Part shown: positions 13,781 to 63,598 of the stretch, piece by piece
How the letters are laid out: each line of letters opens with the position of its first letter
Numbering within the stretch: the first letter of the stretch is position 1
Assembly (NCBI GenBank): GCA_951406725.2
Contig: OX597840.1
Span: forward strand, 17,546,001 to 17,610,000
Length of the DNA: 64,000 bases
Direction: 5' to 3'
From: Octopus vulgaris
Lineage: Eukaryota
Position numbers and translations under genes: made by a program
Notes under the pieces: model-generated
What the model saw: only the letters and a program-made list of their open reading frames with translations
What the model was told of the DNA's origin: nothing
The model's database searches: none

Positions 13781-13888
13781 AATATATATATATATATATA
13801 TATGTAGGTCCTGGGTTGAGTCGGGGTTAACCACAGTAAATAAGGTACTCAATACATAGCAGAGTAAATTAATTTATTTTATAGAAGG

Positions 13889-13939
13889 AGCTTCTACAGG
13901 ACTAGAACTGTTTCATTCAAATGAAATCATCAGGAAGCT
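13889..13939 (-). ncRNA. Minimal type I hammerhead ribozyme in 3' pseudo-LTR
   Basis: Minus strand: AGCTTC-CTGATGA-tttcatttgaat-GAAA-CAG ttctagtc CTG-TA-GAAGCT; stem I AGCTTC/GAAGCT, GUA cleavage triplet. Confidence 0.8.
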
Positions 13940-14131
13940 TGGTGTCAAGAATAGTTTTGGCATTTATACATTTAGGCAGATTTAAAGGGGTGGTGGTGGG
14001 GGACTTTTTGGGGTAGGCAGGGCGCAAACTGTCTTTCTTAGGGGAGTGGTCAAAAGAATCAGTGATAAAGTAGGTAAATGAATAAATAGGATAATAGAAT
14101 AGAGTTTTAGGTAAATAAGAAGACTATCACT

Positions 14132-17016
<2,885 letters not shown>

Positions 17017-17096
17017 GTGAATAGTCTTAGGAAAGAAGGTAATTGGGGGTGCTGAAGGAACGGTGGGTGTGGGGGGTTTTTGTGGGTGGGGTGTCG

Positions 17097-19237
17097 TCAA
17101 TCGGGTTGCCTGGTGGGTCTGTAGTTTTTGTAGTTTGCATAAATTTTGTGCATACAGTTTGGGGAGTGTTCCAAGATCTTGTTGAGGAGAGGGCCTTTGG
17201 CGAACAAGATCTCCAGGCTCTCAGAAATGCAAAGGTCACAGCAGGTATGGCCTCCTGTGTACGAACGCGCCCTCTGTAGTAGTCTCCACTTGATCTTGAA
17301 GGGGATGGAGTTCCTTTTAAGGTACCAGATGTGGGCGGCGAGAGTGGTCTGGTTAGATTTGTCAGGTCGCCGGAACGAGTGTGTGTGGGCGTACCAGCGA
17401 GTCCTAAAGCTATTTGATGTCATTCCGATGTACGATTTTCTTTTATCATCGGGGCCTGATCGTACCTCGCTTATGTAGACGAGGTCCTTCTGTAGGCAGT
17501 TGTTGTTGAGGGGGCAAGTGGTTTTATCAGGGAAGTTGCAATTGCTTTCGGATGTTGGATGGGCTTCGGAAAAAGTAAATTTATTAAGTTTTTTTACGTT
17601 ATTGTTGGCTAGGTTCCTGGCTAGATTGGGTGTGGTGGAGTAGGAGAGTCTAATGGTGTTCTTATTAAGGATTGTATAGTACTTATGTTGGGTGGGGAAG
17701 TGTTTTTGTAGGAGAGTGAAGAAAATTTTAGCTACAGGTGTTGCGACTTCACGGTTGAAGGGGGGGTTGTACCAGCTAATGTGTCTTCGCCTATTTTTCC
17801 TGGGTTGGCGTGGGGCTATGCTAATGTAGGTGATCTTATCTTTAAAGCCACTGTGGGCCAGGGCCTCGTTGTAATAGGGGGCTGCGGCATTAAAGATATC
17901 TTCGGTAGCGGACAGGCTAGATATTCTAATGGAGACACTTTTCATTAGGTTGTCTAATATATTTTTGGGGTGGTTAGAATTAATGTCTATATATCTAAGG
18001 GATTCATTTGGTTTATGGTACGGGTAATAAAGGGAAGTTTTTAAGTCGAGGGTAACGTCAAGGAAGTTAGCTTTGGTTAAGTTCGAATCTAAGGTAATCC
18101 TAAGACCTAAGTTTTTAAAAAAGTGTAATGGTTTTTCTGGAACCCATCCGTGGTCCTGGGGTTTATTTTGTGGAGGGCAAAAAGGCCATCATCGTGGTAG
18201 AGACCACCGGAGAGGCCTGTGAATAGGGTCTTCAGCCTATGGAGGATGAAAAGGCCCACAAGGTCACTTATTTCAGCCGAGTCGCTAGCACCCATGCTGA
18301 CGTCGAAGGGGGTCATGGATTTTTTGTTGATCCAGTGGGATCCGTCGTGGTAAAGAAAGGTCTTATGTGCATGGAGGATCACATCTTGCTCGGCTTCGGT
18401 GATGGTGGAGAACATCCTAGCGAAGTTAATCGCGTCAATCAGCAGGCTCTCCGATATGGAGGCGTAGTAATCCTCGATATCTACTTGTAGGAATCGGGTG
18501 TTGCTCTTGTCAGGTAAATCCCGGAACCATGTTATTGCATCGGAGGTCCTATTCCAGAGTGGAAGGGGTGAAGCTTCACGTATTTTAGGTAAAATCCTGT
18601 CCAGGATTTTCTTGCTGACGGATCCGATGTCAGACTTGGTTGGGTTAATCAGTCGGACCGATGGTTTATTTTCGAAATTGTCTTTGTGGTCTTTCAGGGT
18701 GAAGTGTGGGGACTTCACCCTCAGAGGTTCAGTTTGGTCATCGAGTTTAAGGGAAGTGGCTATCTCCTTCCCGGCTAAGTTAGTTTCAGTTAAAGATGTG
18801 TCATCAACTTTTTTGTACTTAGCTGTGATGGCGTTATCAGCTAGTCTGTTGTAGGTATCAGGAGTCACCGCGTAAATACTTTTTGTCTTGTCTGAAGGGA
18901 CATGGAGGTGCGGGGAGCTTTTCATTTTCGAGAGTTTCTCATTAAGTTCCGTTTGGAAAGGTAGGTTGACTTTCCTGAATTTGATATTTTTTATCATAAG
19001 GAAGAGGTCTTCTTCAAACGGTTCGAGTAGGCTGTTGGTAGGAGGGGCCTTATTTGATTTGAAGCCGTACTTATCATTATTGGTAGATGCTACATCAGGG
19101 TGGTCGAAGAAGAACGATCTCCATCTAATTCTTTTGATGAACTCATCAGTCCGTCTAATGAGCGCTTTTTGGTACTGTTTCCTTGGTGGGATAGTAATGT
19201 TCTTCAAGGAAGTGTTGAGGTCGATTCTTGTCAGCAT
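17097..19237 (-). pseudogene. Penelope-like RT + GIY-YIG endonuclease ORF with one frameshift near 18130
   Basis: SDKT, RLINP, DIEDYY, MGASD, GLYHDDGL (RT), FLDVTLD, SNHP, WYNPPF, CPLNNNC, VY...YIG (GIY-YIG), CDLC..E; reading continues in a second frame from FFKNLGLRIT. Confidence 0.93.
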
Positions 19238-19368
19238 TTTTTCTTGGTGATGGTTATAAGGGCACTGGGGTGTGCTAGGATATGTAGGTCCTGGGTTGAG
19301 TCGGGGTTAACCACAGTAAATAAGGTACTCAATACATAGCAGAGTAAATTAATTTATTTTATAGAAGG

Positions 19369-19419
19369 AGCTTCTACAGGACTAGAACTGTTTCATTCAA
19401 ATGAAATCATCAGGAAGCT
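19369..19419 (-). ncRNA. Minimal type I hammerhead ribozyme in 5' pseudo-LTR
   Basis: Identical to the 13889-13939 motif. Confidence 0.8.
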
Positions 19420-19956
19420 TGGTGTCAAGAATATATATATAAGCACTGACTGGCATTGGATGTGGAAACGGTTGTAAGAAATGTTACGTCATGTTTTGTA
19501 TTAAAAAATATTCTACAGATGTGGTCCAGTTTGTTTGTTGATCAAATGTTTTCTCCATTTTTTTATTATTTAAACTTATATAATTAAGAGAAAATGACCT
19601 CTATTAAGTCGTTCACTTGATAGTGAAAGATATTATCTATATTAAATCATATAGAAAAAATCTAAATATATTATAATAAATATTATTCTAAAAATCACTA
19701 AATTAAATAAACATTAAATTGACTACGTCTTTATATTTTTGATTTTAATATTATCTTTAAATCAATAATAATAAAATCAATAATATATGTGTGTGTGTGT
19801 GCGTAATCAGGAGAGAATGCGCACAGTGTTAGGACCCGATCGACCCTTGATTGCCCTCCCTCTGTTTGGTGCCCACCTCCCTTAGGCTCCATTATATCTC
19901 AACCATGTATCATCCTATTCTAGTTTTCGTTAATTCTCTCTGTTTCAATTTAAAAG

Positions 19957-23779: not shown

Positions 23780-24155
23780 GCTGGGTGTTGAAAAGTTCCT
23801 GGCTTTAGGGGTATCGTGAAAGGCCTGGTTGAAGGCCCAACCTTCCAAGTTCTTTCACAGGGATTAGAAAACTGAAGGACTGCTGCAATAAGTGTATGAA
23901 TCAGAGAGGGGAATATGTTGAATAAAATCATAATTAACAGATCTTCCTGTATTTTCTTTTACTCAAAGCCAGGAACTTTTCAGCACTCCTTTGTGTGTGT
24001 GTGTGTGTGTGTGTGTGTATGAGTGTGTGCTGAAAACTTTCTGGCTTTAAAAGTGTTGCAAAAGGCCTGGTAAGAGGCCAAACCTTCCGAGTTTTTTTAC
24101 AGGGCTTAGAAAAACTGAAGAGCTACAGCAAAAGTGTGTGAATCTGAGAGGGGGA
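23780..24155 (+). mobile_element. Mariner-derived short repeats (two tandem copies; third at 62846-63525)
   Basis: GAAAAGTTCCTGGCTTT ... AAAGCCAGGAACTTTTCA TIRs; internal mariner-like 3' end ..KC(V/M)N(L/Q)RGEYVE. Confidence 0.65.
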
Positions 24156-24481
24156 AAAAGTTTTCCATTAAGATTTGTGATTTTAGTAAGGTTAATATTC
24201 ATAATGAATTTGCCATTTTTGAAAGGTGTGCATTGCATACCTAGCATACCCAGAATATACGCCCCCTAGCATTAACTCTGTTATAGGTCACGGGGTCAAG
24301 GTAGGCCTTTGGCTAAAATAAAAAACAAAAACAAAACAAAAGAATGACACATTGGATGATATGGTCCTAGATACACTATGACTAAATATAAAATAAGATG
24401 GAATGTCTTTGATCAGAAGTCTGCTCAAGCAGGGCTGAACTTGGAATAATAAAAACTACAAGAAGGGATGTCACATTAGAT

Positions 24482-35014: not shown

Positions 35015-35299
35015 GTGAGTATTGTACAACTAACCCATAGATCATGAGATTTGTTGGTACAAATCGAAACTTATCTTTCTTAATTAATTTCTTTTTCTTT
35101 TTTCATTATTTGTGACAAAAGCTGTATTAGTTCAAAATAGCATTCTGTATAACATACTTGATGCAGATATAATGTTAAAACTGCAGTTTTCAGGATTTTA
35201 CTTGGCACACTGCTTCATGAAGGTCACTGCTAGGTCTCACTAAGCATGCAACCATGTGTTGCTATCAGTTGGCACACTACAGAACTAGGCAAGGGACAT

Positions 35300-35443
35300 T
35301 ATTTACATTTGACAGATATTTGTCCCCATCTTGTTTGTTGTTAACTCAATGTTTTGGCTGATATACCCTCCAGCCTTCATCAGGTGTCTTGGGGAAATTT
35401 CGAACCTGGGTTCTCATTCCTATGGTATTTTTCAAAGTTTTTG

Positions 35444-35481
<38 letters not shown>

Positions 35482-35718
35482 GTTATTATCATTATTATTA
35501 TTATTATTCAGGTCACTGAATAATAATAATAACATTGAAAAATACCTTAGGAATGAGAACCTAGGTTTGAAATTTCCCCAAGACACCTGATGAAGGCTGG
35601 AAGGTATATCAGCCGAAACATTGAGTTAGCAACAAACAAGATGGGGATAAATATCTATCAAATGTAAATAATATAAATAATGTACATAATTCCTCATCTC
35701 TTAAATATAGAGCTGTAG
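35300..35718. mobile_element. Fold-back element with a hammerhead motif in each arm and a (TTA)n/(TAA)n centre
   Basis: Arms ~35300-35435 and ~35535-35670 are inverted; GACAC-CTGATGA-AGGCTGG..TCAGCC-GAAA; second copy at 62916-63381. Confidence 0.8.
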
Positions 35719-62132: not shown

Positions 62133-62915
62133 CATTATTATTGTTATTATTATTATCATCATCATTATCATCATTATTATCATCATCATTATTATTATTC
62201 ATTTTGTTCATCATGTACAAGTACATTTGTATTCCTCGGCGTAAAATAAAAACAAAACTCTTTCGCACCCAAAGTAATATGTGTGACAGAGAGAGGGAGG
62301 GAGAAAGATGAACAATTTAAAATAAATAAATGATTTAAAATAAATATATTGTAATTGTTGTGTGAGAAAGTATATATACTATGATTATAAAATATAGTGT
62401 CTTTCAAAAACATCCTAAATTTGAACACTATATCTCGTATTCAAGAAAAAACAAAACATTTTACATTTTATTTTTTATGAACGTCGTCACTTACTCTCTC
62501 TCTCCCCCTCTCTCTATCTCTCACTTTGTCTTTCCCTTTTTTGTTCAGACGCCATGAAACTCTCTTCCACTTTTCTTTATTTTGTTTTTTTTTTGTTAGA
62601 CGGCATCAAAAAGCTATGGCTGAAAATAGATTTTTATGAACGTCATCACTTACTCTCTCTCTCCCTCTCTTTTTGTCTTTCCTGTGAAAGTTGACAAAAC
62701 CCAAATAGGATGTTGATGAATGTCCTCCTAAAATTTGAGCAACATGCGTGCTAATTTGTGGATGTGCATATATATATATATATGCATAGATATATGTATA
62801 TGTATGTAATATCTACGTATGTATGTATGTATTATGTATGTATATGCAAAAGGCTGCTTTAAGGGTATTGGAAAAGGTCTGGTTGGAGGTCCAAACTTCC
62901 AAGTTCTTTTACAGG

Positions 62916-63381
62916 TATTTACAACTGATGGATATTTATTCTTATCTTGTTTGTTGTTAACATAACATTTCGGTTGATAAACCCTCCAGCTTTCATTAGG
63001 TGTCTTGGCCAAATTTTGAACCTGGGTTCTCATTCCTAAGGTATTTTTCATTGTTATTATTATTATCATTATTATTATTATTATTACTACTATTATTATT
63101 ATTATTACTACTATTATTATTATTATTATTATTATCATTATTATTATTCAGGTCACTGCCTGGAATCAAACTCGGTATCTTGGGCTCTTAACCACTACAC
63201 CATATGCCCATAGGCATGAGAACCCAGGTTCAAAATTTCCCTAAGACACCTGATGAAGGCTGGAGGGTTTTATCAGCCAAAACGTTGTGTTAACAACAAA
63301 AAAGATGAGGACAAATATCCATCAAATGTAAATAATGTAAATAATGTACATAATTCCTCATCTTTTAAATATAGAACTGTA
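62916..63381. mobile_element. Second copy of the hammerhead fold-back element, with 12-bp TSD
   Basis: Flanked by TTCTTTTACAGG (62904-62915) and TTCTTTTGCAGG (63382-63393) inside a mariner-derived repeat. Confidence 0.8.
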
Positions 63382-63598
63382 TTCTTTTGCAGGGCTTAGA
63401 AAAGGTGAAGGACCGCTGCAATAAGTGTGTGAATCTGAGAGGGGGAATTCATTGAATGAAGTCTTAATTAACTGATCTTGTAGTTTCTTTTATCCAAAAC
63501 CAGAGACTTTTCCGTTCCCCTTCGTATTGAAACAAAATCAAAAAGTTACCAAAATTAATCAACTCCTTCAAATCTCATTGTAATTGTTTGTCTTACAG

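What the first reader, a model, noticed from the sequence alone, without database searches (positions are those of the whole stretch)
62904..63393. Hammerhead hairpin element inserted as a unit with a 12-bp target-site duplication
A mariner-derived repeat that is uninterrupted at ~23840-23930 (..AAGTTCTTTCACAGGGATTAGAAA..) is split here. TTCTTTT(A/G)CAGG is duplicated on both sides of a 466-bp inverted-repeat element with a hammerhead motif in each arm. This gives exact boundaries, shows the element is younger than its host repeat, and the 12-bp TSD fits endonuclease/RT (TPRT-like) insertion better than TA- or 8-bp-duplicating DNA transposases (inference).
Basis: partly seen in the sequence, partly recalled or inferred. 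Interest (0 to 1): 0.75.

Follow-up and report, generated by a model that had tools for sequence, protein, structure and literature searches.

The report
Penelope retrotransposon with tRNA-type promoter
This is a back-to-back pair of the end repeats of a common Penelope jumping gene, a layout already known; the unusual part is that the repeat begins with a tRNA-derived sequence at which most copies start, so the element is likely read by RNA polymerase III, which is untested.

Summary
In detail: a 466-bp insert (62916-63381) with an 11/12-identical 12-bp duplication splits a mariner-type MITE. It is not a hairpin element of its own. It is a truncated, head-to-head pair of pseudo-LTRs (pLTRs) of a Penelope/Poseidon retrotransposon with roughly 20,000 arms in this genome; a full-length RT + GIY-YIG copy was found. 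Copies show variable duplications (mostly 8-16 bp; 43 of 51 versus 6% in shuffles) and one tailed plus one shorter arm (18 of 20), the published Penelope signature. Both hammerhead cores in this copy are mutated. The new part: the pLTR starts with a tRNA-derived head carrying A and B boxes; 41 of 47 arms that reach the head stop within 14 nt of its start, and the 2.6-kb unit has no shared T4 run (weak evidence, P about 0.03-0.12). Pol III transcription is therefore likely but untested; RNA reads were uninformative. The two arms share subfamily variants and either can be longer, favouring two priming events on one source RNA. The scan reached the same reading earlier on other DNA of this genome (e1-8669850). 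Verdict: new variant of a known kind.

The parts
62845..62903 (+). left part of the host ~200-bp mariner-type MITE (its left end is decayed)
   Evidence: 85% to window 23802-23861; host family with terminal inverted repeats and TA ends
62904..62915 (+). target-site duplication, left copy
   Evidence: sequence; single in host copies
62916..63059 (-). short (tail-less) pLTR arm: ORF start, hammerhead, ends 47 nt before the tail end
   Evidence: aligns to positions 1-147 of the 194-nt reference unit of L008
62960..63003 (-). minimal type I hammerhead, core base G5 changed to A
   Evidence: alignment A1
63053..63148 (-). (AAT)n tract inside the pLTR
   Evidence: sequence; present between head and unit in family copies
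63149..63209 (-). tRNA-derived head (A box 63192-63202, B box 63162-63173 with one change; 14-nt deletion between the boxes in this copy)
   Evidence: family head resembles the genome's tRNA-Arg genes, z 7.5-8.5; alignment to L153
63206..63215 (.). 10-nt palindrome at the centre of the insertion = 5' leader of the head, where family copies start
63216..63381 (+). tailed pLTR arm, starting at the ORF's ATG and coding its first ~55 codons
   Evidence: same frame runs into the ORF in long copies L289-L317
63246..63290 (+). minimal type I hammerhead, core base G12 changed to A
   Evidence: alignment A1
63335..63381 (+). Penelope 'tail': extension present on one arm only; fixed 3' end
63382..63393 (+). 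target-site duplication, right copy
   Evidence: sequence
63394..63528 (+). right part of the host MITE
   Evidence: 81% to window 23850-23981

Best explanation
The insert is a 5'-truncated, head-to-head pair of pLTRs of a Penelope/Poseidon retrotransposon whose pLTR begins with a tRNA-derived head, likely an RNA polymerase III promoter, and it was likely written into the MITE in one event by the element's own reverse transcriptase-endonuclease. Shown: pLTR = head + (AAT)n + ATG + minimal hammerhead + tail; the same pLTR flanks an RT/GIY-YIG ORF; variable duplications; one tailed and one short arm; most arms start at the head. Inferred: the enzyme nicks both target strands about 12 nt apart; each 3' end primes reverse transcription on RNA from one source element, one at the tail end and one 30-47 nt inside; both cDNAs run towards the RNA 5' end; their ends join through the terminal palindrome or a few matching bases and are filled in. 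Here one cDNA reached the RNA start and the other stopped at the ATG. The short RNA start is inferred to be a Pol III start site, so solo pLTRs would behave like a built-in SINE.
For: Linkage: 27 of 30 loci picked by the ORF end carry the head directly downstream (four are near-duplicates on one contig); full-length copy L247; head upstream of the ORF in L292, L297, L312, L316, L317 of 30. Protein: RVT_1 33.1 bits, cut-off 29.6; CxC between the two GIY-YIG half-motifs and no linker zinc finger (criteria from PMC8557442). TSD 43 of 51 vs 5.9%. One tail, one short arm 18 of 20; two read termini 36 nt apart. Arms of one insertion share non-CpG variants 0.54 vs 0.17 between loci, 0 of 5000 permutations (28 pairs); 26 of 31 shared variants recur in other loci. 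Longer arm: tailed 20, short 22, equal 9, which a simple copy of the tailed arm cannot give. Head: A box 34 of 49, B box 33 strict / 42 relaxed of 49. Starts: 41 of 47 arms reaching the head stop in a 14-nt window; 16 of 19 in a second set (after hand correction); genome-wide about 17,000 heads against about 2,400 upstream flanks and 1,700 ORF ends. The anole PAc protein cuts and extends both strands, starts at two sites and is predicted to be a dimer (PMC11167929).
Against: No direct evidence of Pol III: reads from 3 runs of one study lie equally in both directions, follow copy number and show no start peak. ARAGORN and Rfam do not call the head a tRNA. The lack of T4 is weak: P 0.03-0.12 by own-codon shuffle, about 0.05 with other families' codons, and two unrelated RT fragments also have only one T4 each. 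The start pile-up could be a Pol II start or an RT stop at the leader hairpin. Shared variants fit second-strand copying or gene conversion too (5 of 31 are private), and deletions after insertion could make either arm longer. Pfam GIY-YIG did not hit this family's endonuclease. No tree with named Penelope references was built.
Confidence: 0.7

Rival explanations
1. Same Penelope family, but the inverted arm is made by self-priming: one cDNA (or an antisense RNA) folds back at the terminal palindrome and is copied, and later deletions trim either arm (self-priming proposed in PMC3846280).
For: Many junctions are centred on the leader palindrome and carry 10-22 nt of fold-back sequence; arms share variants; palindromes at inverted junctions are published for Adineta elements.
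Against: The tail-less arm reaches further 5' in 22 of 51 pairs, in L166 and L191 by hundreds of bases into the ORF; the target shows a roughly symmetric bias at both nicks.
Confidence: 0.25
2. Same family, but the head is a captured SINE relic without promoter role; copies pile up there because the long Pol II RNA starts there or because the RT stalls at the GC-rich leader hairpin.
For: Drosophila Penelope uses an internal Pol II-type promoter in the pLTR (PMC2377424); RNA data show no Pol III start; T4 depletion is weak.
Against: A and B boxes match the Pol III consensus in the family majority while the cloverleaf is lost; the starts lie 0-8 nt before the tRNA-equivalent first base, where Pol III starts (established knowledge); no T4 site is shared by more than 4 of 23-56 copies along the ORF.
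Confidence: 0.3
3. A separate tRNA SINE that only borrows a Penelope 3' end.
For: Short copies outnumber ORF-linked ones about 7 to 1 and start at the head; schistosome SINE-like elements join a Pol III promoter to a hammerhead (PMC6765202).
Against: The head sits in both pLTRs of the autonomous element; single insertions have one arm starting at the head and the other inside the ORF (L191).
Confidence: 0.07
4. A foldback or MITE-type DNA transposon with long terminal inverted repeats.
For: Long inverted arms.
Against: Variable TSD, unequal ends, variable centre, RT partner.
Confidence: 0.01

Closest known systems
Penelope/Poseidon PLEs: Pen2a_Av and Pen2_Av of Adineta vaga (PMC3846280, passages read) and Poseidon_Ac/PAc of the green anole (PMC11167929, main text read)
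   Same: Single RT + GIY-YIG ORF of about 800 aa; pLTR covering the first codons; inverted shorter pLTR at the 5' side; 30-40-nt tail on one end; 8-10-bp TSD; palindrome at the pLTR 5' end; two RT start sites; hammerhead at the ORF start.
   Different: Their pLTRs are reported with TATA/Inr-like or internal Pol II-type promoters; this pLTR starts with a tRNA-derived A/B-box head followed by (AAT)n, and solo pLTR pairs dominate.
Minimal hammerheads of metazoan PLEs (Cervera and de la Pena 2014, PMC4209133; part 1 of 4 and passages read)
   Same: Short helix I, longer helix II with an unpaired 5' base, palindromic helix III needing a dimer; pairs 100-700 bp apart on opposite strands already reported in Schistosoma mansoni.
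   Different: No tRNA head mentioned there (0 occurrences of 'tRNA').
Schistosome SINE-like Sm-alpha/Sj-alpha elements (as reviewed in PMC6765202, passages read)
   Same: Pol III-type promoter followed by a hammerhead.
   Different: Described as non-coding, mostly tandem; here the head is part of a coding element's pLTR and copies are inverted pairs.
TRIMp3 elements Cassandra, Helenus, Ajax (PMC10886601, passages read)
   Same: Small-RNA-derived Pol III promoter inside a terminal repeat.
   Different: Non-autonomous LTR elements with 4-5-bp TSD; that paper argues autonomous partners must use Pol II, whereas here the autonomous element itself carries the head.
Octopus tRNA-derived retroposons of Ohshima and Okada 1994 (only the title seen, in a reference list; paper not held)
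   Same: Recalled, not checked: two of the three families are tRNA-Arg-related with some tens of thousands of copies, so this family may be one of them.
   Different: Could not be compared; a Penelope link is not recalled from that work.

Membership tests
Penelope/Poseidon EN+ PLE | [quoted passage not shown] | tested here: met
   L247: RVT_1 above cut-off; motif CVYSIPCSCGRLYKG plus later R, H, H, E, N in alignment A2; Atlas look-alikes carry PF26215/PF01541 at 0.94. Pfam GIY-YIG itself gave no hit on this family and only E 0.002-0.02 on 2 of 12 relatives.
Penelope/Poseidon EN+ PLE | No zinc-finger linker between RT and EN (unlike Neptune, Nematis) | tested here: met
   criterion from PMC8557442
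Penelope/Poseidon EN+ PLE | pLTR on both sides, overlapping the ORF start | tested here: met
Penelope/Poseidon EN+ PLE | Inverted 5'-truncated copy and a 30-40-nt tail on one end | tested here: met
   51 of 90 tail-selected copies have an inverted arm ending 22-59 nt short; 18 of 20 pairs one tailed, one short
Penelope/Poseidon EN+ PLE | Minimal hammerhead in the pLTR | tested here: met
   Family motif fits the descriptor; 29 of 117 arms keep core and stems. This copy's two cores are mutated. Cleavage untested.
Penelope/Poseidon EN+ PLE | Variable-length TSD | tested here: met
Penelope/Poseidon EN+ PLE | RT phylogeny within the clade | not tested
   No named reference sequences were available; relatives are unnamed.
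tRNA-derived SINE | tRNA-derived head with A and B boxes | tested here: met
   (27 distinct own-genome tRNA genes of 6 amino acids only, so the donor tRNA is not settled)
tRNA-derived SINE | Non-coding element separate from its partner | tested here: not met
   head is part of the autonomous pLTR
tRNA-derived SINE | Transcription by RNA polymerase III | tested here: inconclusive
   start pile-up and T4 absence are indirect; RNA reads uninformative
DNA transposon / MITE / foldback | Fixed TSD and matching terminal inverted repeats | tested here: not met
Non-LTR retrozyme | Head-to-tail tandem units, each with a hammerhead | tested here: not met
   definition from bioRxiv 10.64898/2026.07.22.740005; tandem units are rare among 90 + 30 copies
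Tc1/mariner MITE (host repeat) | Terminal inverted repeats and TA ends | tested here: met
   20 copies printed
Tc1/mariner MITE (host repeat) | Sequence derived from a mariner transposase | tested here: inconclusive
   One frame reads like a mariner C-terminus; the motif is recalled, and no profile test was run.

The most novel reading that the evidence does not exclude
A protein-coding Penelope retrotransposon is transcribed end to end by RNA polymerase III from a tRNA-derived promoter captured into its pLTR (no T4 terminator in 2.6 kb), and the same promoter turns every solo pLTR into a SINE-like source, which a dimeric RT-endonuclease copies twice from one RNA at a pseudo-palindromic target to make the inverted pairs.
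Probability: 0.3. Interest if true: 0.75.

Novelty: new variant of a known kind. Interest (0 to 1): 0.45.

Why it matters
The insertion layout itself is textbook Penelope. If the tRNA-type promoter is real, this is a case where an autonomous retrotransposon and its SINE are one sequence, and possibly a coding RNA made by Pol III, which is generally taken to make only short non-coding RNAs. The family's thousands of short, fully readable insertions also make an open question testable by counting: how Penelope elements build their inverted ends (shared variants between arms, two start sites, symmetric target bias).

Tried and rejected
Rfam on the window and on two stretches: no hammerhead or tRNA hit. 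ARAGORN on 20 loci and on the head majority: nothing. Pfam GIY-YIG search of the genome led to Neptune-like families; none of 65 loci had this pLTR as its own end, so they are not the partner. PF26215 is not in the Pfam copy. My first reading, a separate SINE, was dropped after L020. A non-AUG start was considered and dropped: an in-frame ATG lies upstream of the hammerhead. No RNA holder on record was listed; the RNA lay gave no strand or start signal; a second lay returned no result, so start sites in reads and in other species remain open. One row (L320) of alignment A1 was given in the wrong orientation and is ignored; the pair count on A1 and a second protein alignment failed on my input errors and were not repeated. 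The window's second copy (35296-35717) shows no clear TSD. Literature searches for a tRNA head in a pLTR found none; Repbase, Dfam and SINEBase could not be searched, and no supplementary files were read.

Full report
Observation. The 12-bp duplication (62904-62915, 63382-63393; 11 of 12 identical) and the 466-bp insert are there. The flanks rejoin into a ~200-bp repeat with terminal inverted repeats and TA ends, whose 20 printed copies carry the 12-mer or a variant once. So the insert is younger than its host. The mariner label for the host rests on TA/TIR structure and a recalled peptide motif, not a profile hit. The arms pair over about 130 nt, but the right arm runs 47 nt further. Both hammerhead cores are mutated in this copy, and Rfam calls nothing.

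Family. The window lies in G000 (2.8 Gb, 227 contigs), an octopus-type genome by inference from its size. Exact 34-mers from the tail and the hammerhead occur 1847 and 2447 times, with 0 for reversed controls. With an exact-match rate of 12 of 118 this gives roughly 24,000 hammerhead arms, a rough figure.

The first 90 tail matches on contig C1 served as a set not chosen for their 5' structure. Of these, 51 have an inverted arm that ends 22-59 nt short of the tail end, and 43 of the 51 have a duplication scoring 7 or more, against 5.9% on average (at most 15.7%) in 200 shuffles. The 39 without such an arm were not scored. A stricter pooled set of 62 sites, which includes similarity-selected loci and this finding, gives lengths of 8-16 bp, mostly 10-13, plus one microsatellite case. 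Among 29 insertions picked by the hammerhead, 20 are head-to-head pairs: 18 have one tailed and one short arm, 2 have two short arms, and none has two tails (my count).

Partner. Locus L020 holds an RT-thumb/endonuclease fragment inside one TSD-bounded insertion. Of 30 loci picked by that fragment, 27 continue straight into head, (AAT)n and hammerhead unit. L247 (G000:C1:7950000-7958000) is a full-length copy broken by stops. In long copies the unit reads in frame into the ORF from an ATG just before the hammerhead, and the head precedes it in 5 of 30 loci picked by the ORF start. The repeat in the finding is therefore the pLTR. The RT passes Pfam RVT_1, and its nearest long relatives are 745-841-aa RT proteins. 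The endonuclease has the CxC-containing motif and no linker zinc finger, which by PMC8557442 (passages) means Penelope/Poseidon. Pfam's GIY-YIG model did not hit it, and no tree was built. No intact ORF was seen among the copies translated, so the family looks inactive.

Known part. Inverted truncated copies, a 30-40-nt tail on one end, 8-10-bp TSDs and a palindrome at the pLTR start are described in PMC8557442 and PMC3846280 (passages). Opposite-strand minimal hammerheads 100-700 bp apart are described in PMC4209133 (part 1 of 4 and passages). Two RT start sites, two-strand cutting and a predicted dimer are reported for anole PAc in PMC11167929 (parts 1-2 of 4). The finding's layout is therefore ordinary for this class.

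Unusual part: the head. The pLTR begins with about 74 nt that resemble the genome's own tRNA genes, best tRNA-Arg (z 7.5-8.5 against shuffles; only 27 distinct genes of 6 amino acids were available). The A box is present in 34 of 49 full heads and the B box in 33 (strict) or 42 (relaxed). ARAGORN and Rfam do not accept it as a tRNA.

Where copies start. Of 141 arms, 57 end in the unit, 11 in the AAT tract, 26 inside the head, 41 in a 14-nt window at the head start, and 6 run on into the ORF side. A few ORF-reaching arms with internal deletions were misfiled by the script, so the last number may be nearer 10. In the hammerhead-selected set 16 of 19 stop there (the script printed 17 of 18, I moved L342 and added L346 by hand). 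Genome-wide 22-mer counts are 2931 (head), 831 (flank just upstream) and 557 (90 nt further up). Corrected by exact-match rates of 17/100, 18/52 and 17/52 these become about 17,000, 2,400 and 1,700: a sevenfold drop across the head start against 1.4-fold over the next 90 nt. The starts lie 0-8 nt before the tRNA-equivalent first base, in a 10-nt palindrome.

Terminators and RNA. L247 has no T4 run in 2622 sense bases; three other PLE families have 3-9 in about 2 kb. Over 90 kb of aligned copies, no T4 site is shared by more than 4 of 23-56 copies. The statistics are weak: P is 0.115 and 0.029 by own-codon shuffle and about 0.05 with other families' codons, and two unrelated RT fragments have only one T4 each. 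RNA reads from three runs of one study lie equally both ways and follow copy number, so they say nothing on the promoter; their loose ends do show two 3' termini 36 nt apart.

Mechanism. Arms of one insertion share non-CpG variants more than arms of different insertions (0.54 against 0.17; 28 pairs; 0 of 5000 permutations). Of 31 shared variants, 26 recur elsewhere and 5 are private, which points to one source element, with some room for conversion. Either arm can reach further 5' (20 tailed, 22 short, 9 equal), which a plain copy of the tailed arm cannot give without later deletions. Targets are biased at both nicks: A before and TT at the start of the duplication (38, 38 and 35 of 62), and TGT 8-12 nt later in 29 of 61 against 3-8 in five other windows. 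Part of this may be primer-template pairing rather than nuclease preference. I infer two target-primed events on RNA from one source, joined at the palindrome or by microhomology. In the finding, one arm reaches the palindrome and the other begins at the ATG; that junction type recurs (3 of 90 unselected; many in a search biased towards it). Fold-back self-priming, proposed in PMC3846280, remains the main rival.

Comparison and novelty. A Pol III promoter plus hammerhead is known from schistosome SINE-like elements (review PMC6765202, passages). Pol III promoters in terminal repeats are known from non-autonomous TRIMs (PMC10886601, passages). Drosophila Penelope has a Pol II-type internal promoter (PMC2377424, passages). 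Seven searches found no tRNA head in an autonomous pLTR. An octopus repeat annotation (PMC13282606, passages) does not mention hammerheads. Repeat databases, supplements and the 1994 octopus retroposon paper were not seen and may already hold this family. An earlier AI note from this scan on other DNA of the genome says the same (e1-8669850). I saw it after reaching this reading; it is not independent support, and it gave me the lead to PMC3846280.

Verdict. Member of Penelope/Poseidon by structure and motifs (about 0.95). Pol III use of the head for short RNAs about 0.6, for the whole coding unit about 0.3; twin priming about 0.6. New variant of a known kind, interest 0.45.

Noticed in passing
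window 13800-19433, minus strand: A different, apparently young PLE-like element: 154-bp direct repeats 100% identical (13800-13953, 19280-19433) around an ORF in two frames (19306-18110, 18188-17100) with an endonuclease-like C-terminus and its own hammerhead-like core; 20% identity to a Neptune-like ORF, no Pfam hit.
   Followed up: partly
window 35296-35717: Second copy of the same family: short arm, (AAT)n, tailed arm, head almost wholly missing, no clear TSD.
   Followed up: partly
window 23785-23986 and 24024-24156: Two adjacent copies of the host mariner-type MITE.
   Followed up: partly
L091-L102 (e.g. G000:C16:20834000-20842000): Young Neptune-like PLE family, copies 93-98% identical to L091, with many open 781-aa RT/GIY-YIG frames and, in three copies, an overlapping upstream 479-aa frame.
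   Followed up: partly
L240 (G000:C1:112937500-112941500), L002, L347: Nested and tail-to-tail arrangements; in L240 the TSD is itself pLTR sequence, so the element inserted into an older copy.
   Followed up: no
L206 and L214, just 5' of the head: Runs of 6-11 A directly before the family start site, possibly untemplated additions.
   Followed up: no
window 63216-63218 and L031-L050: The recurrent arm-to-arm junction falls on the ORF's start codon; microhomology may explain it, but a ribosome- or protein-bound block is not excluded.
   Followed up: partly
L011, L036, L040, L133, L171: The stretch between head and hammerhead unit is often lengthened by 500-800 bp, apparently by other repeats landing in the (AAT)n tract.
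   Followed up: no
   Followed up: no
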